Origin: Escherichia phage CJ20
Sequence record: MT533174.1
DNA: 64,000 nucleotides
Strand: one strand, 5' to 3'
This document shows, piece after piece, positions 253 through 59,872 of the stretch. Below the pieces are notes generated by a model. That model was not told the origin of the DNA. It did not search any database and worked only from the letters and a program-made list of their open reading frames with translations. Every line of letters starts with the position of its first letter. Positions within the stretch are counted from its first letter, which is position 1. A program made the position numbers and the translations under genes.

Positions 253-597
253 ATGTCTAAAGTATTTTTTGGTAATGCTAAAGTTATGTTCTTTAAACAG
301 ATTAGCCTTCAGGAGGCGTCGGAGGCATTCAATCAAAGTATGATTCCTGACGTACATCCAAAAGTTATGACGAGTGCTGATTTCGTTTTCGTCCAAGACC
401 CGGAAACAGGCTTTTATCGGTTCATTAAATTTCGTATGAGTATGGAGCCAGGTTATCATAGTGCTTACTACGTGAGTTATGAAAATGTTATCAAAGAATT
501 GCGTAATACCTATAAGCGCGCTTTGACCCCGCTGAATAAGGTGTATAATGCTTCCTTTTATACGAGCGGATTTATTTTAGAACAACTTCAAAAATAG
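253..597 (+). CDS. hypothetical early protein (114 aa)
   Basis: ATG preceded by GAGGAAAA RBS; compact spacing with neighbours; no recognisable motif. Confidence 0.5.
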   Translation: MSKVFFGNAKVMFFKQISLQEASEAFNQSMIPDVHPKVMTSADFVFVQDPETGFYRFIKFRMSMEPGYHSAYYVSYENVIKELRNTYKRALTPLNKVYNASFYTSGFILEQLQK

Positions 598-626
598 TGT
601 ACATACTCTTGGGGTCAGAGTATAAT
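597..626 (+). promoter_or_regulatory. T4-type early promoter (-35 GTGTACA 597-603, 17 bp spacer, -10 TATAAT 621-626)
   Basis: Matches T-even early consensus GTTTAC-N17-TATAAT; -10 sits in loop of inverted repeat GGGGTCA/TGACCCC. Confidence 0.6.
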
Positions 627-670
627 GACCCCACTGGAGCACAAAACTTTAACTTACTGAGGAAATTAAT

Positions 671-2935: not shown

Positions 2936-2965
2936 ACTAGGACCCTTCGGGGTCCTTTTTATTTT
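2936..2965 (+). terminator. rho-independent terminator (GGACCC-UUCG-GGGUCC + U-run)
   Basis: GC stem with UUCG tetraloop followed by T-run downstream of gene 52. Confidence 0.7.
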
Positions 2966-2973
2966 AAAAAGTA

Positions 2974-3003
2974 GTGTACAATCCCCTTGACCTGATGCAT
3001 AAT
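2974..3003 (+). promoter_or_regulatory. T4-type early promoter (-35 GTGTACA, -10 CATAAT) with conserved leader
   Basis: GTGTACA-N17-CATAAT followed by conserved GATTCCATACTGAGTTAC leader shared with other copies. Confidence 0.6.
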
Positions 3004-3052
3004 GATTCCATACTGAGTTACAAACTGAATCACAAAAACTTTGGAGAATAAA

Positions 3053-5094: not shown

Positions 5095-5248
5095 CTTAGA
5101 GAACACCATCACTGGTCAGCGTACACGCGAGCAGGCTTGCTTTGAGGAATTCCTTGGAGCTGATTTTAAGTTCCAGGAACCAGTTGAACAGTTGTATCAG
5201 GAATATGTTGTACAGATGGAAAATCATGTGTACAACCCAGAGGAATAA
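5084..5248 (+). CDS. small hypothetical protein (54 aa)
   Basis: ATG-initiated ORF filling gap before asiA. Confidence 0.25.
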   Translation: MSHNLENTITGQRTREQACFEEFLGADFKFQEPVEQLYQEYVVQMENHVYNPEE

Positions 5249-7063: not shown

Positions 7064-7081
7064 AGAGGGCCGAAGCCCTCT
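7064..7081 (-). promoter_or_regulatory. stem-loop between genes 37 and 38 (AGAGGGC-UUCG-GCCCUCU) just upstream of the gp38 RBS
   Basis: Perfect GC hairpin with UUCG loop in the 31 nt gap between gp37 stop and gp38 start. Confidence 0.5.
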
Positions 7082-11720: not shown

Positions 11721-11745
11721 AAAAAAGGACCCGAAGGTCCTTATT
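11721..11745 (-). terminator. rho-independent terminator after gene 35 (GGACC-UUCG-GGUCC + U6)
   Basis: GC hairpin followed by U-run on minus-strand transcript, between gene 35 stop and gene 36 late promoter. Confidence 0.55.
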
Positions 11746-12877
11746 GTTTTTCTCTGAATTCCGCGGCAAATACGAATCCAGCTTGACTGGACCTTGTTGC
11801 ATTTTTATCATTCAATTGTGCAATGACATTACCCATATTACCTGGTTCTCCAGCCACAACCATTCTTATGCCGTTAATACCGATTTCTGCGGATTTAGCC
11901 TGTGTTTCTTGTCGAGCGATTTCTGTAAAGAAAATATTCCTTACTCCACCTTGTCCAGCAGCAACGGTCTTCCTTGCATACAATGTAAATCCATCAGCAT
12001 TCGGTGGAACAACAACATAACGTTCAAACGTCATCCATGCACCAGCCGGTGGACTTGCTTGACCTGTAGATGGGATATCATAATCGTTTGACTGAATCAT
12101 CGTCTGACCATTAAAGAATCGAACAGACATCTGAGTTGTTCCAAGGTCTTTAAGCGCCTGGTCATATGTCAGCTGAAACTTCAGGTAAAAAGTATCACCA
12201 GGGGCCATATTATAATCGGCCGCAGGAGTGATGGGAGAGTCTGTGGGGAAGCGTTTTATTTCTTGTGTACTATTACTATAATATGTGTTTCCGTCTTCCA
12301 CGACGCGCAGAGGGAATCCTGTGCCACCCACATCAGCAAAGTCGTCGTACACCATTTCCAATGGAGTCAATACATCTTCAACAGTTTTCCCGTCATTATA
12401 CAACACATGCTCTTTAACGATTGCATTTCGACCAGAGATATAAAAAGCCGAATACGAAGTATCAACTTGGTCAATCAACCACTTATCCGGAAATGCAGTC
12501 GAGCCGCGTGTTCTGAACCAATCAATTAAAGTTTGGGAAGCATTCAATTTCCCCTGCGATATCAAACAAACAATCCTACCCGCTGGAATGGAATTAATAT
12601 AAGTCACAAAGGCCTGTGAAATGACATCATAGTCTTTTGTGAAACCATAGTTTTTGGTTGCAGTGATTGTATTTGTTACTGGGTCAATCTCAATAAGGTT
12701 TAATCCATTTTGGAAGTTCTGAGGCCCGAAGGCCTCATCTTGAAACTTAACGTAGGGATAGTTTGGCGATTTGGTACAAGTCCCAGCAATCGACAATTTA
12801 TATCTTACTGCGTTATTTTCAGAAAGCACGGGAACTTGGACATATCCCTGTCCAAATTCAGCCATAAATCTTTCCAT
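11741..12877 (-). CDS. 35: long tail fibre hinge protein gp35 (378 aa)
   Basis: Size and position between genes 34 and 36 as in T4. Confidence 0.7.
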   Translation of the reverse strand: MERFMAEFGQGYVQVPVLSENNAVRYKLSIAGTCTKSPNYPYVKFQDEAFGPQNFQNGLNLIEIDPVTNTITATKNYGFTKDYDVISQAFVTYINSIPAGRIVCLISQGKLNASQTLIDWFRTRGSTAFPDKWLIDQVDTSYSAFYISGRNAIVKEHVLYNDGKTVEDVLTPLEMVYDDFADVGGTGFPLRVVEDGNTYYSNSTQEIKRFPTDSPITPAADYNMAPGDTFYLKFQLTYDQALKDLGTTQMSVRFFNGQTMIQSNDYDIPSTGQASPPAGAWMTFERYVVVPPNADGFTLYARKTVAAGQGGVRNIFFTEIARQETQAKSAEIGINGIRMVVAGEPGNMGNVIAQLNDKNATRSSQAGFVFAAEFREKQ

Positions 12878-19102: not shown

Positions 19103-20014
19103 ATGTCTATGTTTAAACGTAAAAACCCTGCTGACCTGGCTGCTTCCCTTAACGCTCTTAAAGGTGGTTCTGGTTTCTCTTCTGACGATAAAAAAGAATG
19201 GAAACTGAAAGATACTGATGGCGTCGGCTCTGCGGTTATTCGTTTCCTGCCTTCTAAGAATGAAGAAAATCCATCTCCATTCATCAAGCTCGTTAACCAC
19301 GGCTTTAAAAATGCTGGTCAATGGTATATTGAAAACTGTACTTCTACTCACGGCGATTATGAAAACTGTCCTGTGTGTGCGTACATGAATAAGAATGACC
19401 TGTACAATACAAACGAATCCGAATATCGTAAACTGAAGCGTAATACTTCTTACTGGGCTAACATCCTGGTCATTAAAGACCCTGCTGTTCCGTCTAACGA
19501 AGGTCAAGTATTCAAATATCGCTTTGGTAAGAAAATCATGGACAAAATCAACCAGATGGTTGAAGTCGATGTTGACATGGGCGAAACAGCTATTGATGTA
19601 ACTTGTCCTTTTGAAGGTGCGAACTTCGTACTGAAATCTAAACTGGTTTCCGGTTATAAAAACTACGATGATTCCAAATTCATGAACCAGTCTGAAATCG
19701 CCGGCATCAATGATGAAGCATTCCAGAAAAAACTTTGGGACGACATGTCTGACCTGAATGAATTGCTGGTATTTAAATCTCTTGAAGAGAATCAGAAGAA
19801 ATTCTCTAAAGTAATGGGTACAGCTGCTCTCGGTGGTGCTGCTTCTAAAGCTGCTGCGCAAGCCGATAAACTGGGCGCTGACCTGGACGATTTTGATAAA
19901 GATATGGAAGACTTCACTTCCAGCAAACCTGCTAAGTCTGAACGCGCTGCGACTGCTCCAAGCACTCCAGAGCCTTCTGATGATGGTCTTGACGACCTTC
20001 TGGCTGGCCTTTAA
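19103..20014 (+). CDS. 32: single-stranded DNA-binding protein gp32 (303 aa)
   Basis: MFKRK N-terminus, zinc-site C-x3-H-x5-C-x2-C, acidic C-terminal tail; matches T4 gp32. Confidence 0.9.
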
Positions 20015-20018
20015 TATA

Positions 20019-20046
20019 AGGGGACCTTCGGGTCCCTTTTTTATTT
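20019..20046 (+). terminator. rho-independent terminator after gene 32
   Basis: GGGACC-UUCG-GGUCCC hairpin plus T-run. Confidence 0.75.
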
Positions 20047-20056
20047 TCAAAAAGTA

Positions 20057-20086
20057 GTGTACAAGTCCTTTGAGCTAAGGCATAAT
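20057..20086 (+). promoter_or_regulatory. T4-type early promoter (GTGTACA-N17-CATAAT)
   Basis: Consensus early promoter with conserved leader GATTCCATCAACTACTGAT. Confidence 0.6.
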
Positions 20087-20124
20087 GATTCCATCAACTA
20101 CTGATAACAACTGAGGAAATAAAA

Positions 20125-20487
20125 ATGGAAATCGGCAAAAAATATGAGTTCAATCCACATCGTATTAAATCTTTCATTGATATTAGTTCATCGAATGCTA
20201 GTATGGTCGACATCATCCAAGAAAATGGCGGTTGGTTTGAAGTTAAATCAATATCAAGTGCAGACGGCTATGATTATGTAACCGAAATCATTTGTGCTAA
20301 TGGTGCAATCTATAATGATGATGGCATGGGTGATGATTATTTTGAACTTAGTGAAGAAGAGTTTTATTGCTTCCGCGAATACTCCAGTTATGCAAAAACA
20401 CCTTCAGGGGCGGTTTCTATTAATTGTGTTGTGGATGCTAATAACGTCGACCAAATCATTGAACTTCTACAAAAAGCTTTCAAATAA
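20125..20487 (+). CDS. hypothetical protein (120 aa), member of a small paralogous family
   Basis: RBS + ATG; shares GKKY and DDYFELSEEEFYCF motifs with ORF 20834-21202. Confidence 0.5.
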   Translation: MEIGKKYEFNPHRIKSFIDISSSNASMVDIIQENGGWFEVKSISSADGYDYVTEIICANGAIYNDDGMGDDYFELSEEEFYCFREYSSYAKTPSGAVSINCVVDANNVDQIIELLQKAFK

Positions 20488-20549
20488 CAGTTTACAACGG
20501 GTCTATGGTTGAGATACTATAGGCCTATCAACTACATGAGGAAAATAAA

Positions 20550-20777
20550 ATGGCTAAAGTTAATATTGATATCGTTGATTTTGAATACACTTACGAAGTT
20601 ATCCGCAATCGTTATCCTTCTTTGTGTATGACTTACATTAAAGATACCCAATTCTTTAGTGTTCAAATTGAAGTCCAGGGTCCTCTTGAAGACCTTACCC
20701 GCTTTATGCAAAATGAATATTGCGAAGGGATGCACCCGGAAGACGCTAAATTTTATATGAATTTGATTGAAGCTTAG
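20550..20777 (+). CDS. hypothetical protein (75 aa)
   Basis: GAGGAAAATAAA RBS; own early promoter upstream (GTTTACA 20490-20496). Confidence 0.5.
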
Positions 20778-20833
20778 TATACAAACCAACGGGAACATGC
20801 TAATATGTTCCCAACTGAAATGAGGAAATTAAA

Positions 20834-21202
20834 ATGATGGAAACTGGTAAATTTTACGTATTAGACCCTGCTGCTAAAAAACAATTCATCGCTGGTAGTC
20901 CTGATGATAATTCGTGCATAGTCAAGCTGATGGAACAGCATGGCAGTTCCTTCAAAGTCCTGGATATGTGCTTTATTGATGGCGATTATTTTGTTGAAAA
21001 AGTTGAAATGAAAGATGGCACCATCCTGAATAGTATGGGGGATTCTGATGAGTACTTTGAACTCGCTGAATGGGAATTCTGTCACTTCCTGGAAGTTGAT
21101 GGCGATGCTCCTTATGTTGATACCCAAACCATTCATGTGCAGGTAAATCATAAAAATGCCGCAGAAGTCATTGCACTGATTAAAGCAACTTTTGGGGTCT
21201 AA
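20834..21202 (+). CDS. hypothetical protein (122 aa), paralogue of 20125-20487 and 33097-33639
   Basis: Shares GKFY...AKKQFIAG with ORF 33097 and DEYFELAEWEF with ORF 20125. Confidence 0.5.
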   Translation: MMETGKFYVLDPAAKKQFIAGSPDDNSCIVKLMEQHGSSFKVLDMCFIDGDYFVEKVEMKDGTILNSMGDSDEYFELAEWEFCHFLEVDGDAPYVDTQTIHVQVNHKNAAEVIALIKATFGV

Positions 21203-21203
21203 T

Positions 21204-21458
21204 ATGACTAAAGATGATTTCCTGGATGCAGTAGAAAAAGCAAGCGAACAATTTGAAGTAATGGGTGTACGAGTTCATAAAGACAGAAATTATGGCCTCG
21301 ATGTTCAAACATACTCATTGTGGCTTGTTGGTGAACACAGTCTTGCAACCAATCTTGTTATGGGGGTTGATACTCATCCTTTATTAGTTAAGTTCAGAAG
21401 TATGGAAAAAGCCACCAAGGAAATGATTAAACTTGGCAAATGGCTTGATAAAATTTAA
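21204..21458 (+). CDS. hypothetical protein (84 aa)
   Basis: First ATG in frame; ORF-track start at 21192 is TTG. Confidence 0.45.
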   Translation: MTKDDFLDAVEKASEQFEVMGVRVHKDRNYGLDVQTYSLWLVGEHSLATNLVMGVDTHPLLVKFRSMEKATKEMIKLGKWLDKI

Positions 21459-21464
21459 AAAGTA

Positions 21465-21494
21465 GTGTACAACCAAATGGGGCTATGACATAAT
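21465..21494 (+). promoter_or_regulatory. T4-type early promoter (GTGTACA-N17-CATAAT)
   Basis: Conserved cassette AAAAAGTAGTGTACAA...CATAATGGTCCCATACTGAGTTAC. Confidence 0.6.
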
Positions 21495-21531
21495 GGTCCC
21501 ATACTGAGTTACCAAATAACTGGAGAATAAA

Positions 21532-21771
21532 ATGAAATTACAACGTGAGAGCATCAAAGATTCAGAAGTTAAAGGTAAATGGTACTTCACAATCCAGGGT
21601 AACAATCCAGAAGCTCTGGAAAAAGCTGAACAAGCTTTGTGTGAAATGGGTTGGAAAGATGAGTGTGATGGTTGTCCTCTTTATGAAGATGGCAGCTCGT
21701 CTGGTTTCTGGATTCACCACTCTGATGTTGACCAATTTAAAGCTGACTGGAAAGTTGCTAAGAAAGCGTGA
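21532..21771 (+). CDS. hypothetical protein (79 aa), Cys-containing
   Basis: RBS GGAGAATAAA; CEMGWKDECDGCP motif may bind metal. Confidence 0.5.
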   Translation: MKLQRESIKDSEVKGKWYFTIQGNNPEALEKAEQALCEMGWKDECDGCPLYEDGSSSGFWIHHSDVDQFKADWKVAKKA

Positions 21772-21781
21772 GGAAAATATA

Positions 21782-22119
21782 ATGCTTGCTGAATACACTT
21801 GTTTTGCTAAAGATGATGCACATCCTGAACTGATTCTTGAAGTTAAGGTTAATACTCTTGAACAAAAATTTGATTGGAGCCTTTACATCTATCCTAAAAA
21901 TAATATTGATGGTCCACAGAAATATACGCTTAATGACAAGTGCATTAGTGGTATCATTGGATATGGTACAAGTGAAAGCAAATATTCATTAGAAGATATT
22001 CGCCAATCACGTTGCGCGGTATCATATTTTGATACAGATACAATTAAACATCTTTACAAATTGATTCTCGATATTCGCAAAGATTTTACTGCCATTAAAA
22101 AGACAGTTAAGGAATTAAA

Positions 22120-22123
<4 letters not shown>
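21782..22123 (+). CDS. hypothetical protein (113 aa)
   Basis: ATG after GAGGAAAATATA RBS; track ORF 21545-22123 is the same frame extended upstream. Confidence 0.45.
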
Positions 22124-23785
<1,662 letters not shown>

Positions 23786-23916
23786 TGCAAATTCAAATTG
23801 CTGGCATTTTATTTTTGGTCGTAATGGTCAGACTTAACTTCCTTCTATAAATACGATTCCGCTCCAGGGGTCATGTGTTAGTATAAGCATGACCCCATTT
23901 TATAACAGAGGAAAAC

Positions 23917-27390: not shown

Positions 27391-27412
27391 GAAAGGGCTT
27401 CGGCCCTTTTTG
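27391..27412 (+). terminator. rho-independent terminator after nrdB (GGGC-UUCG-GCCC + U5)
   Basis: GC hairpin with UUCG loop and T-run; ends 4 nt before denA ATG. Confidence 0.65.
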
Positions 27413-28959: not shown

Positions 28960-28969
28960 TAAAAAAGGG

Positions 28970-28999
28970 GTGTACAAGCCCCTCCTTTCTATACATAAT
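28970..28999 (+). promoter_or_regulatory. T4-type early promoter (GTGTACA-N17-CATAAT); -35 lies in loop of GGGG/CCCC hairpin
   Basis: Consensus spacing; leader GGTTCCATCAACTACTGAT shared with promoter at 20057. Confidence 0.55.
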
Positions 29000-30412: not shown

Positions 30413-30516
30413 TTGAGTCTTGTATCGATGGGTCGGATGTCATTCTATTTGGCTTTACATGCTTTTGTTTTGGAATCGTGCTTAGCATGTGTATAAATGG
30501 TATTTTTGGAAAGTAG
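30409..30516 (+). CDS. small Cys-rich hydrophobic peptide (35 aa)
   Basis: ATGA overlap with o-spanin stop; may be non-coding. Confidence 0.2.
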   Translation: MIESCIDGSDVILFGFTCFCFGIVLSMCINGIFGK

Positions 30517-30545
30517 TTTACAAACTCTTGGGAGCAGAGTATAAT
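30516..30545 (+). promoter_or_regulatory. T4-type early promoter (GTTTACA-N17-TATAAT) with -10 inside GGAGCA/TGCTCC hairpin
   Basis: Consensus elements and 17 bp spacer; same loop sequence GAGTATAA as promoter at 597. Confidence 0.6.
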
Positions 30546-30573
30546 GCTCCTACGGATTATAAAATTTGAGGAA

Positions 30574-32686: not shown

Positions 32687-32711
32687 CGCTTTAAAAATTT
32701 TATGTTATAAT
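32685..32711 (+). promoter_or_regulatory. middle promoter (MotA-box-like AACGCTTTA, 12 bp spacer, -10 TATAAT) followed by GGGGTCTAGGTCC palindrome
   Basis: Same architecture as promoters at 51303 and 56051. Confidence 0.45.
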
Positions 32712-32757
32712 GGGGTCTAGGTCCTTTGGATACCCCAATAACTAAGCGAGAAAAGAA

Positions 32758-36596: not shown

Positions 36597-36601
36597 GTTC
36601 A

Positions 36602-36629
36602 GGGACTCTTCGGAGTCCCTTTTTTATTT
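36602..36629 (+). terminator. rho-independent terminator (GGGACUC-UUCG-GAGUCCC + U-run)
   Basis: GC hairpin with UUCG loop and T-run. Confidence 0.75.
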
Positions 36630-36640
36630 TCCATAAAGGG

Positions 36641-36670
36641 GTTTACAACAGGGTTTGACCAGTGCATAAT
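36641..36670 (+). promoter_or_regulatory. T4-type early promoter (GTTTACA-N17-CATAAT) with conserved leader
   Basis: Cassette GTTTACA...CATAATGATTCCATACTGAGTTAC. Confidence 0.6.
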
Positions 36671-36711
36671 GATTCCATACTGAGTTACACAATAAAACAC
36701 TGGAGAATAAA

Positions 36712-37080: not shown

Positions 37081-37151
37081 AACAGTTTACTTTGGTACAG
37101 GTTATGATATTATAGACCTGTACCAACAAATGAAAACAACTGGAGAATAAA

Positions 37152-37517: not shown

Positions 37518-37553
37518 TCTTAAACGGGGCGAAAGCCCCTTGAGGAAAATACT

Positions 37554-41563: not shown

Positions 41564-41565
41564 CA

Positions 41566-41586
41566 AAGGGCTTCGGCCCTTTTTAG
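41566..41586 (+). terminator. rho-independent terminator after gene 30 (GGGC-UUCG-GCCC + U-run)
   Basis: GC hairpin with UUCG loop and T-run. Confidence 0.65.
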
Positions 41587-44034: not shown

Positions 44035-44064
44035 AAAAGGGACCTTCGGGTCCCTTTCTTTTTA
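44033..44064. terminator. bidirectional rho-independent terminator (A-run, GGGACC-UUCG-GGUCCC, T-run)
   Basis: Sits between convergent ORF 43744-44034 (+) and gene 54 (-). Confidence 0.75.
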
Positions 44065-51304: not shown

Positions 51305-51329
51305 TGCTTTAATTTTATGGCTGTATAAT
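51303..51329 (+). promoter_or_regulatory. middle promoter (MotA box AATGCTTTA, 12 bp spacer, -10 TATAAT) followed by GGTTCTAGACCC palindrome
   Basis: Sequence architecture upstream of uvsY. Confidence 0.55.
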
Positions 51330-51357
51330 GGTTCTAGACCCTTACATTGGATACATT

Positions 51358-55469: not shown

Positions 55470-55498
55470 AAAGGGACCTTCGGGTCCCTTTGTTTTTA
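55470..55498 (+). terminator. rho-independent terminator after hoc (GGGACC-UUCG-GGUCCC + U-run)
   Basis: Canonical hairpin and T-run. Confidence 0.75.
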
Positions 55499-56050: not shown

Positions 56051-56078
56051 TTTGCTTCAAATAAAAATGCGGTATAAT
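56051..56078 (+). promoter_or_regulatory. middle promoter (MotA box TTTGCTTCA, 13 bp spacer, -10 TATAAT) followed by GGTTCTAGACCC palindrome
   Basis: Same architecture and identical downstream palindrome as the uvsY promoter. Confidence 0.5.
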
Positions 56079-56174
56079 GGTTCTAGACCCTTTGTGACTA
56101 TTAATTCCTTTCAGAGAAAGAAAGTATAGTGGGTCTAATTTATAATGATATTTATAACATCAAAGTGAGAGATT

Positions 56175-59806: not shown

Positions 59807-59836
59807 GTTTACAACCCGATTAAGATAAGACATAAT
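59807..59836 (+). promoter_or_regulatory. T4-type early promoter (GTTTACA-N17-CATAAT) with conserved leader
   Basis: Cassette shared with promoters at 2974, 21465 and 36641. Confidence 0.6.
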
Positions 59837-59872
59837 GATTTCATACTGAGTTACCAAACAATGGAGTCTAAA

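What the first reader, a model, noticed from the sequence alone, without database searches (positions are those of the whole stretch)
597..632. Early promoters whose -10 element sits in the loop of a GC-clamped hairpin
In a second promoter class the -10 hexamer is flanked by a perfect inverted repeat: GGGGTCA-gagTATAAt-TGACCCC (611-632) and GGAGCA-gagTATAAt-TGCTCC (30531-30550), both with the same loop sequence, plus GGGAACAT-gcTAATAT-ATGTTCCC (20791-20812) and GGGGTCATG...CATGACCCC (23867-23896). This could modulate promoter melting or act as an RNA processing or stability element in read-through transcripts.
Basis: seen in the sequence. Interest (0 to 1): 0.45.

Follow-up and report, generated by a model that had tools for sequence, protein, structure and literature searches.

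The report
Known promoter-plus-hairpin cassettes (PeSLs)
These are compact control cassettes of a T4-type phage in which an early promoter overlaps an RNA hairpin; the arrangement is real and under selection, but it was already described in T4-type phages as "PeSLs", so the finding is ordinary.

Summary
All four inverted repeats are at the stated coordinates. Seven of 15 promoter regions tested fold far better than shuffles (z -2.4 to -4.8); the other early promoters do not fold. The window is a T4-type myovirus close to Shigella phage SP18 and Escherichia phages VR7/VR26. I found three more members (hairpins 20499-20526, 21477-21502, 37092-37126) and two promoters with a hairpin over the -35. 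Site 4 (23867-23896) is a hairpin but not an early promoter. Stems differ between orthologous and paralogous copies while keeping pairing. G.U pairs make the sense strand the better folder in 12 of 13 families. In more distant phages the hairpin persists at the same junction without any promoter. Promoters without an embedded hairpin mostly sit behind a UUCG terminator. Gene cassettes are permuted between relatives, with breakpoints at these elements. This matches the published PeSL (promoter-early stem-loop) class (Arbiol 2010; Comeau 2014), which explicitly includes stem-loops overlapping the -10 box. The most likely mechanism is an RNA hairpin acting on read-through transcripts from upstream (attenuation or 3'-end protection), with the overlapping promoter restarting transcription. 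It is not a modulator of promoter melting. The hairpins lack U-tracts, so they are not canonical intrinsic terminators. Low novelty.

The parts
597..626 (+). Early promoter upstream of ndd: -35 GTGTAC 597-602, 18-nt spacer, -10 TATAAT 621-626. The 25 nt upstream are 84% A+T, and the upstream ORF's stop (TAG 595-597) abuts the -35.
   Evidence: gene identity from the SP18 annotation
610..633 (+). Hairpin TGGGGTCA/gagtataa/TGACCCCA with the -10 in the loop. In read-through RNA the stem extends to 606-639 (CUCU pairs with GGAG), -18.3 kcal/mol. No T-run follows.
30516..30545 (+). Early promoter: -35 GTTTAC, -10 TATAAT. It is a paralogous copy of the ndd promoter (31/38 identical; 4 of the 7 differences are two compensatory stem pairs).
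30530..30551 (+). Hairpin (G)GGAGCA/gagtataa/TGCTCC(T), -13.7 kcal/mol, z -3.3, no T-run.
20777..20812 (+). Early promoter (-35 GTATAC 20777-82, -10 TAATAT 20801-06) with hairpin GGGAACAT/gctaat/ATGTTCCC at 20791-20812, -12.3 kcal/mol, z -4.2.
23867..23896 (+). Hairpin GGGGTCATG/12 nt/CATGACCCC between the 286-aa ORF (ends 23785) and the 751-aa ORF (starts 23917). These are td and nrdA by my assignment from ORF sizes and T4 gene order, consistent with RB49's td-nrdA annotation. -18.2 kcal/mol, z -4.1. It has no -35, the loop hexamer is TATAAG, it is followed by ATTTTAT, and it lies 22 nt downstream of a late-promoter-like TATAAATA (about 23838-23845). It is not an early promoter.
20490..20526 (+). 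Additional member: -35 GTTTAC 20490-95, -10 TACTAT 20515-20, hairpin GGGTCTATGGT/tgagat/ACTATAGGCCT 20499-20526. The -10 lies in the 3' arm. Three G.U pairs. -15.0 kcal/mol sense versus -5.2 antisense.
21465..21502 (+). Additional member: -35 GTGTAC, -10 CATAAT 21489-94, hairpin ATGGGGCTAT/gacata/ATGGTCCCAT 21477-21502. Two G.U pairs. -14.6 sense versus -7.0 antisense.
37085..37126 (+). Additional member: -35 GTTTAC, -10 TATTAT 37108-13, 11-bp perfect stem TTGGTACAGGT...ACCTGTACCAA 37092-37126, -17.4 kcal/mol, z -4.8.
5207..5236 (+). Related subclass: hairpin GTTGTACA/14 nt/TGTACAAC whose 3' arm covers the -35 (GTGTAC 5228-33) of an early promoter.
28966..28983 (+). Related subclass: hairpin AGGGGT/gtacaa/GCCCCT with the -35 (GTGTAC 28970-75) in the loop. 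About -9.5 kcal/mol.

Best explanation
These are PeSLs (promoter-early stem-loops): compact intergenic cassettes of T4-type phages in which a host-sigma70 early promoter and a stable stem-loop share the same ~40 bp.

The two functions are separable and act on different transcripts.
- The hairpin forms in RNA made from promoters further upstream. It marks the 3' boundary of the upstream message. Either it attenuates read-through, or (my preferred variant, because there is no U-tract) it blocks 3'-to-5' exonucleases and so stabilises the upstream cistron after processing.
- The promoter restarts transcription for the downstream gene. Its transcripts begin in or just after the 3' arm and never contain the hairpin.

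The overlap arises because the intergenic gap is only ~70 nt. The 3' arm is the promoter's own -10/discriminator sequence (T-G-r-y-y-C-C, also present in hairpin-less promoters). The free spacer has evolved to complement it.

A by-product is that the repeated cassettes act as recombination points for shuffling small early genes.

Shown here: structure, selection on pairing, sense-strand bias, separability from the promoter, breakpoint association. Inferred: the RNA-level activity itself (attenuation versus 3' protection).
For: 1. Bimodal folding: 7 regions at z -2.4 to -4.8, versus 8 hairpin-less early promoters at z about 0.
2. Orthologues keep a hairpin with a different stem at the same place. 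ndd upstream: GGGGTCA/TGACCCC here versus CGAGAATC/GGTTCTCG in JS98-like phages. Site 4: GGGGTCATG versus GGTTCTAT.
3. The paralogous sites 1 and 2 differ by two double compensatory changes.
4. Formal count on 13 in-register sequences: 96% of cells paired versus 42-48% when slid, 5 of 8 pairs with changes on both sides, 0/500 shuffles.
5. Sense-strand bias: sense is more stable than antisense in 24 of 27 strongly folding promoters and in 12 of 13 families. The 42 weakly folding promoters show the opposite bias. One example as DNA: -4.3 sense versus -1.9 antisense.
6. The hairpin is independent of the promoter. T4 and RB69-type phages have GGCCGY...GCGGCC upstream of ndd with no promoter. Distant site-2 orthologues have a UUCG hairpin with no promoter. 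In the window, promoter-less hairpins without T-runs also sit just upstream of SD sequences at 1182-1197 and 37526-37539.
7. Complementary distribution: 0 of 6 promoters with a -10 hairpin have a terminator-type hairpin upstream, whereas 5 of 8 others have one upstream or over the -35. Of those, 2974, 20057 and 36641 follow UUCG+T-run terminators (Fisher P=0.03).
8. Site-3 orthologues swap between an embedded hairpin and an upstream UUCG terminator plus plain promoter.
9. Strong hairpins precede 10 of 41 + strand gene starts, versus 3.7% of coding windows.
10. Literature: PeSLs are defined with stem-loops 'most commonly between -35 and -10 or overlapping the -10 box', often polyG...polyC. One stem-loop reduced downstream lacZ like the rrnB T1 terminator (PMC2839356). 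They are extended to T4/PST and KVP40/nt-1 in PMC4122927. RB49 itself contains identical architectures, e.g. GGGGATATagCATAATATCCCC.
11. Cassettes are permuted relative to VR25, with breakpoints at the elements.
Against: - No hairpin in the -10 class is followed by a T-run (0-3 T in the next 8 nt), and the terminator scan does not call them on the + strand. Canonical intrinsic termination is therefore not expected. The only experimental 'terminator' result in the literature is a reporter decrease for one RB49 stem-loop, which also lacks a U-tract and does not distinguish termination from RNA processing or decay.
- There are no transcript-end data for this phage.
- Promoters are consensus predictions, not mapped start sites.
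- The covariation alignment was assembled from sequences chosen because they fold (ascertainment bias), and orthologues are not independent.
- In RB49 the stems are near-perfect palindromes and show no sense-strand bias. The RNA-level argument therefore rests on the SP18/VR7/JS98 group.
Confidence: 0.62

Rival explanations
1. DNA-level role: the inverted repeat extrudes as a cruciform, or otherwise alters melting of the -10, tuning promoter strength or supercoiling sensitivity.
For: Sites 1, 2, 3 and 37085 are perfect palindromes that fold equally on both strands. The 3' arm is a G+C-rich discriminator, which in E. coli promoters affects open-complex lifetime (general knowledge).
Against: - Several members fold only on the sense strand because of G.U pairs: 20490 is -15.0 versus -5.2, and 21465 is -14.6 versus -7.0.
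- Stems are 6-11 bp with 4-12 nt loops and only -4 to -8 kcal/mol as DNA, which is poor for cruciform extrusion.
- The 5' arm lies upstream of the region melted in an open complex.
- The same discriminator (GATTCC, GGTTCC) occurs in hairpin-less promoters.
- The hairpin persists where no promoter exists.
Confidence: 0.07
2. The primary role is genomic. The cassettes are recombination or mobility signals (PeSL-mediated modular shuffling, mini-circles), and the stem-loop is the crossover or resolution site rather than an RNA element.
For: - Cassettes 20478-20759 and 20775-21472 are permuted in VR25, with all breakpoints at promoter/hairpin elements.
- SP18 and VR26 carry an extra copy between ndd.1 and the next ORF.
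- There are indels next to site 4 in VR20 and VR26.
- Arbiol 2010 mapped one crossover to the loop of a stem-loop.
Against: - Homologous exchange needs shared sequence, but the stems are the most variable part of the cassettes and covary to keep pairing. Selection is on structure, not on sequence identity.
- The sense-strand G.U bias is not expected for a duplex-DNA crossover site.
- Breakpoints at promoters would arise from the conserved promoter consensus alone.
- This reading is compatible with, rather than exclusive of, the main explanation.
Confidence: 0.15
3. Palindromic operator: a dimeric phage or host DNA-binding protein binds the inverted repeat over the -10 and shuts off this subset of early promoters.
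For: Four families share the outer GGG...CCC and inner CA...TG (GGGGTCA, GGGAGCA, GGGAACA, GGGGCTA). The mechanism of early-promoter shut-off in T4 is not fully explained (PMC2988021).
Against: - Variable positions change on both sides so as to stay complementary, which base pairing requires and protein recognition does not.
- Other members have unrelated arms and registers (CGAGAATC; GGGTCTATGGT with the -10 in the arm; TTGGTACAGGT).
- G.T appositions make the half-sites asymmetric.
- The hairpin occurs without a promoter in relatives.
Confidence: 0.04
4. T4 gene e / soc / 49-type translational control: the hairpin hides the ribosome-binding site in long read-through transcripts, and the promoter inside the hairpin makes a shorter RNA that is translatable.
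For: The promoter-inside-a-hairpin geometry is the same in principle (PMC3014915).
Against: - The SD lies 22-32 nt downstream of the hairpin end.
- Mean unpaired probability of SD..AUG is not consistently different between read-through and promoter-initiated RNA. The seven pairs are 0.58/0.70, 0.67/0.54, 0.49/0.50, 0.77/0.77, 0.34/0.54, 0.78/0.81 and 0.30/0.56.
Confidence: 0.03

Closest known systems
PeSLs (promoter-early stem-loops) of RB49/phi1 (Arbiol et al. 2010, Genome Biol Evol 2:140, PMC2839356)
   Same: - Intergenic position: stop codon, AT-rich stretch, -35, -10, then SD-ATG.
- A stable stem-loop with a G-run 5' arm and C-run 3' arm placed between or over the promoter boxes. The -10-overlapping subclass is explicitly described.
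- No U-tract after the stem.
- Located among small early genes of unknown function and at indel or shuffling breakpoints.
- RB49 examples with identical geometry were found here.
   Different: - The -35 here is the T4-type GTTTAC/GTGTAC with 18-nt spacing, not TTGACA-N17.
- The dominant RB49 form has the stem-loop filling the spacer; here most enclose the -10.
- Stems here are more varied and contain G.U pairs.
- There is no sequence homology between the two sets; it is the same design, not the same sequence family.
PeSLs/PmSLs of T4/PST and KVP40/nt-1 (Comeau et al. 2014, PMC4122927) and the PeSL-like elements at T-even IP loci (Repoila 1994, as cited in PMC2839356)
   Same: The same concept, extended to T-even phages with the TTTACW-N17-TAYWAT promoter consensus. 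Middle-promoter versions (PmSL) resemble the JS98-like orthologue of site 4, which has aTGCTTaa-N12-TAGAAT inside a hairpin.
   Different: T4/PST stem-loops are described as weaker and more AT-rich (AGNA-loop-TCNT). The three T4 promoters I scanned fold at only -2 to -7 kcal/mol, whereas the ones here are G+C-clamped at -12 to -18 kcal/mol.
Intrinsic (Rho-independent) terminators, including the UUCG-tetraloop terminators of T4-type phages
   Same: A G+C-rich hairpin placed right after a stop codon, occupying the position that UUCG terminators occupy in front of the hairpin-less promoters.
   Different: There is no U-tract and the loops are 4-12 nt rather than tetraloops. The consensus terminator scan does not call them on the + strand.
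T4 genes e, soc, 49, I-TevI: RBS-sequestering hairpin with an internal late or middle promoter (reviewed in PMC3014915)
   Same: The promoter lies within the DNA encoding a hairpin, so the transcript's origin decides whether the hairpin exists.
   Different: Here the hairpin does not include the SD or AUG, and predicted RBS accessibility is unchanged.
3'-end stabilising stem-loops (e.g. bacterial REP-type or intercistronic hairpins that block PNPase/RNase II)
   Same: Short G+C-clamped hairpins without U-tracts at cistron boundaries. This is the activity I infer.
   Different: No sequence relation, and the activity is not demonstrated for these elements.

Membership tests
PeSL (promoter-early stem-loop) | Intergenic position, from the upstream gene's stop codon to the SD/ATG of the downstream gene | tested here: met
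   The stop abuts or overlaps the -35 (e.g. TAG 595-597 with GTGTAC 597-602). The SD-ATG lies 22-32 nt after the hairpin.
PeSL (promoter-early stem-loop) | Sigma70-type -35 and -10 boxes at proper spacing (the group-specific early promoter consensus) | tested here: met
   GT[GTA]TAC-N17/18-TAnnnT for six elements. This is a consensus match only. Site 4 does not meet it.
PeSL (promoter-early stem-loop) | [quoted passage not shown] | tested here: met
   72-84% A+T in the 25 nt upstream, versus 59% for the window.
PeSL (promoter-early stem-loop) | Stable stem-loop between or overlapping the promoter boxes, often G-run...C-run | tested here: met
   -12 to -18 kcal/mol, z -2.4 to -4.8. 5' arms are GGGG/GGGA/GGG..., 3' arms ...CCC(C).
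PeSL (promoter-early stem-loop) | Association with variable early-gene regions and with indel or shuffling breakpoints between close relatives | tested here: met
   Permuted cassettes versus VR25 with breakpoints at about 20106, 20478, 20759/20775, 21472 and 21522. An extra copy is present in SP18 and VR26.
PeSL (promoter-early stem-loop) | Promoter activity and terminator/attenuator activity in reporter assays; formation of mini-circles | not testable with these tools
   Experimental. Reported only for selected RB49/phi1 elements.
Intrinsic terminator | G+C-rich hairpin immediately followed by a U-rich tract | tested here: not met
   The hairpin is present. There are 0-3 T in the 8 nt after the stem for the six promoter-embedded hairpins, and they are not called on the + strand. 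Site 4 (ATTTTAT) is borderline.
T4 gene e/soc-type RBS-sequestering hairpin with internal promoter | The hairpin includes the SD/start codon, so read-through RNA is untranslatable | tested here: not met
   The SD is outside the hairpin, and unpaired probabilities are similar in long and short RNAs.
Any curated RNA family (Rfam 15) | Match at the gathering threshold | tested here: not met
   0 matches in the whole window.

The most novel reading that the evidence does not exclude
At sites 1 and 2 the hairpin's extended stem pairs with a RegB-type motif placed 2-3 nt after it: GGAGCACAAAA at 636-646 and GGATTATAAAA at 30554-30564, each matching 6 of the 7 positions after GGAG/U in the published strong-site consensus GGAGRAYARAA.

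The motif would then be hidden in read-through RNA but exposed at +4 of RNA started at the embedded promoter. The same leader would be cut or spared depending on which promoter made it, giving promoter-of-origin-specific mRNA decay. More broadly, these could be U-tract-independent 3'-end-forming signals specific to T4-type infection.
Probability: 0.08. Interest if true: 0.5.

Novelty: new member of a known kind. Interest (0 to 1): 0.15.

Why it matters
It matters little beyond annotation. It extends the published PeSL design to the SP18/VR7/JS98 group of T4-type phages.

It adds comparative evidence that the stem-loop is selected as a sense-strand (RNA) structure and is separable from the promoter. 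It also underlines an unresolved point in the PeSL literature: the stem-loops are called terminators but lack U-tracts.

For genome annotation, these elements mark early transcription-unit boundaries and likely recombination breakpoints.

Tried and rejected
- Rfam scan of the whole window: no family.
- Consensus terminator scan: it calls the UUCG+T-run hairpins but not the -10 hairpins on the + strand. Site 3 is called only on the - strand, where no gene exists, so I treated that as coincidence.
- RBS-sequestration model: rejected.
- Cruciform / promoter-melting model: rejected on strand asymmetry and weak DNA energies. In one search the pair window:20508-20540 was mis-specified (it cuts off the 5' arm of the 20499-20526 hairpin) and should be ignored.
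- Palindromic operator model: rejected on covariation and on the diversity of arms.
- Site 4 as an early promoter: rejected (no -35; TATAAG).
- One related-loci run failed on a frame error, and one scan failed on a range limit.
- The gene-start list is crude. For example, it uses 30544 instead of 30580 and so misses site 2. I used it only for a rough enrichment estimate.
- I did not use the protein-search, structure or metagenome tools. The question is about non-coding elements, and relatives were sufficient.

Full report
**Identity of the window.** The first 6 kb match Shigella phage SP18 and Escherichia phages VR26, VR7, VR20 and VR25 at 92-96% identity. These are T4-type myoviruses; SP18 is classified as Straboviridae, Tevenvirinae, Gaprivervirus. 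The early genes run on the + strand here. Site 1 lies directly upstream of ndd.

**Observation.** All four inverted repeats are present at the stated coordinates.
- Sites 1-3 have a T4-type -35 (GTGTAC, GTTTAC, GTATAC) 18 nt upstream of a TATAAT/TAATAT hexamer. The last one or two bases of that hexamer belong to the 3' arm.
- Site 4 (23867-23896) has no -35 and its loop hexamer is TATAAG. It lies downstream of a late-promoter-like TATAAATA that is conserved in relatives.
- Folding 15 regions (14 early-promoter regions plus site 4) gives a bimodal result. Seven fold at -12.3 to -18.3 kcal/mol (z -2.4 to -4.8; 0-7 of 200 shuffles as good). Eight fold at 0 to -5.3 kcal/mol (z -0.4 to +1.8). The binomial P for that excess is about 8e-7.
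Two of them contain G.U pairs.
- Two further promoters (5228, 28970) carry a hairpin over the -35.

**Selection on pairing.**
- Orthologous junctions keep a hairpin but change the stem. Upstream of ndd, this phage and VR20/25/26 have GGGGTCA/TGACCCC, while JS98-like phages have CGAGAATC/GGTTCTCG (one G.U) around the same TATAAT.
- Upstream of the 751-aa ORF (nrdA by my assignment from ORF size and gene order), GGGGTCATG/CATGACCCC is replaced by GGTTCTAT/ATAGAACC.
- Sites 1 and 2 are paralogous copies, 31/38 identical. Four of the seven differences are two double compensatory changes in the stem.
- In an alignment of 13 distinct in-register sequences, 96% of cells pair versus 42-48% when the partner is slid. 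Five of eight pairs change on both sides, and no shuffle of 500 reaches the observed score.
- Caveat: those sequences were picked because they fold, and they are related to one another. The orthologue comparisons are the less biased evidence.

**Which strand.** From the window plus 58 loci of relatives I collected 69 distinct promoter sequences.
- Among the 27 that fold strongly, the sense strand is more stable than the antisense strand in 24 (Wilcoxon P=4e-5) and in 12 of 13 families.
- The 42 weak folders show the opposite baseline bias.
- Examples: 20490 is -15.0 versus -5.2, and 21465 is -14.6 versus -7.0.
- G.U pairs become C.A mismatches on the other strand, so the structure is selected on the sense strand. 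That means RNA made from upstream, because the embedded promoter's own start (about 7 nt after the -10) falls in or after the 3' arm.
- As DNA the hairpins are worth only -4 to -8 kcal/mol.

**Separability from the promoter.**
- T4 itself and the T4/RB69-type loci have a GGCCGY...GCGGCC hairpin at the ndd.1-ndd junction. It has no promoter-like boxes and no T-run.
- Distant orthologues of site 2 have a UUCG-tetraloop hairpin and no promoter.
- Some site-3 orthologues have an upstream UUCG+T-run terminator followed by a plain promoter instead of an embedded hairpin.
- Within the window, none of the six promoters with a -10 hairpin has a terminator-type hairpin upstream. Five of the eight others have one upstream or over the -35 (Fisher P=0.03).
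- Strong hairpins precede 10 of 41 crude + strand gene starts versus 3.7% of coding windows. These include promoter-less, T-run-less hairpins at 1182-1197 and 37526-37539.
- The 3' arm coincides with the discriminator motif T-G-r-y-y-C-C that hairpin-less promoters also carry. It is therefore the spacer that has evolved to complement the promoter.

**What the hairpin is not.**
- It is not a canonical intrinsic terminator: 0-3 T in the 8 nt after the stem, and no + strand call by the terminator scan.
- It is not an RBS-sequestering hairpin of the T4 gene e/soc kind: the SD lies 22-32 nt downstream and its predicted accessibility does not change consistently (background in PMC3014915).
- It is not in Rfam.
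- It is unlikely to be an operator or a cruciform, for the covariation and strand-asymmetry reasons above.

**Comparison with the literature.**
- Arbiol et al. 2010 (PMC2839356) defined PeSLs in RB49/phi1. [quoted passage not shown]
- They proposed a terminator/attenuator role, showed a lacZ decrease for one stem-loop, and proposed PeSL-mediated modular shuffling.
- Comeau et al. 2014 (PMC4122927) extended the class to T4/PST and KVP40/nt-1, including middle-promoter versions.
- Scanning RB49 myself, I recovered the type elements. They include -10-enclosing ones with the same geometry as here (GGGGATATagCATAATATCCCC; GGGTGTATatCATAATACACCC; GGGAGTGTCgctaaGATACTCCC). The tested stem-loop PeSL211/210 also lacks a U-tract.
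- The shuffling signature is present here too. Relative to VR25, the blocks 20478-20759 and 20775-21472 are permuted, with all breakpoints at the cassettes. SP18 and VR26 have an extra cassette between ndd.1 and the next ORF.

**Verdict.** The elements are new members, in another genus, of an already described class. The precise RNA-level activity (attenuation versus 3'-end protection) remains inferred, and it is the only open question of any interest. A speculative link to RegB sites at two of the seven elements is noted below.

Noticed in passing
window 636-646 and 30554-30564; T4 locus L059 about 2573-2560 (- strand): A RegB-type motif sits 2-3 nt after hairpins 1 and 2: GGAGCACAAAA and GGATTATAAAA. 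T4's promoter-less ndd hairpin is likewise followed by GGAGTAGAAAA. The published strong-site consensus is GGAGRAYARAA (PMC3014915). In the predicted read-through fold, the GGA(G) pairs with CUCU/UCU of the spacer, so it would be exposed only in RNA started at the embedded promoter. Only 2 of 7 elements have this.
   Followed up: partly
window 2998-3021, 21489-21512, 36665-36688, 59831-59854 (also 20081-, 28994-): The hairpin-less early promoters share a conserved -10 and leader, CATAATGATTCCATACTGAGTTAC (variant ...CCATCAACTACTGA). It extends well past +1 and forms a repeated 5' leader of unknown role.
   Followed up: no
window 19300-22300 versus L028 (VR25), L029-L033: Small early-gene cassettes are permuted or replaced between close relatives. 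For example, blocks 20478-20759 and 20775-21472 are in the opposite order in VR25, with breakpoints at the promoter elements.
   Followed up: partly
L001 733-812 (SP18) and L005 1011-1089 (VR26) versus window about 237-253: SP18 and VR26 carry an extra promoter/hairpin cassette (GGGAGCA/gagtataa/TGTTCCC, with a G.U pair) between ndd.1 and the next ORF. In the window the two ORFs are only 15 nt apart with no promoter.
   Followed up: partly
window 23838-23845; L037-L040, L052: A late-promoter-like TATAAATA is conserved about 22 nt upstream of the site-4 hairpin. In JS98-like phages the same hairpin encloses a middle-promoter-like aTGCTTaa-N12-TAGAAT (a 'PmSL'-like arrangement). VR20 and VR26 have an insertion between the ORFs I assign as td and nrdA, and VR26 lacks the hairpin.
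   Followed up: partly
window 32706-32740, 51324-51345, 56073-56095: Middle-promoter-like sites (TGCTT-type box plus TATAAT) are followed by a conserved near-palindromic GGTTCTAGACCC / GGGGTCTAGGTCC at the start of the transcript.
   Followed up: no
window 2939-2956, 20021-20036, 27392-27409, 36601-36620, 41565-41582, 44036-44057, 55470-55491; - strand 7064-7081, 11725-11742, 12720-12737: There are many G+C-clamped UUCG tetraloop hairpins (CGAA on the + strand for - strand genes). Most have T-runs, i.e. the classic T4-type terminators. Three of them sit immediately upstream of hairpin-less early promoters.
   Followed up: partly
window 37109-37137 (- strand): The near-palindromic loop of the 37092-37126 hairpin also gives a good sigma70-like match on the minus strand (TTTTCA-16-TATAAT, 10/12). 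It is probably a by-product of the palindrome.
   Followed up: no
window 522-549: A second sigma70-like match (TTTGAC-16-TATAAT) lies inside the 3' end of the ORF upstream of site 1. Transcripts from it would carry the site-1 hairpin near their 5' end.
   Followed up: no
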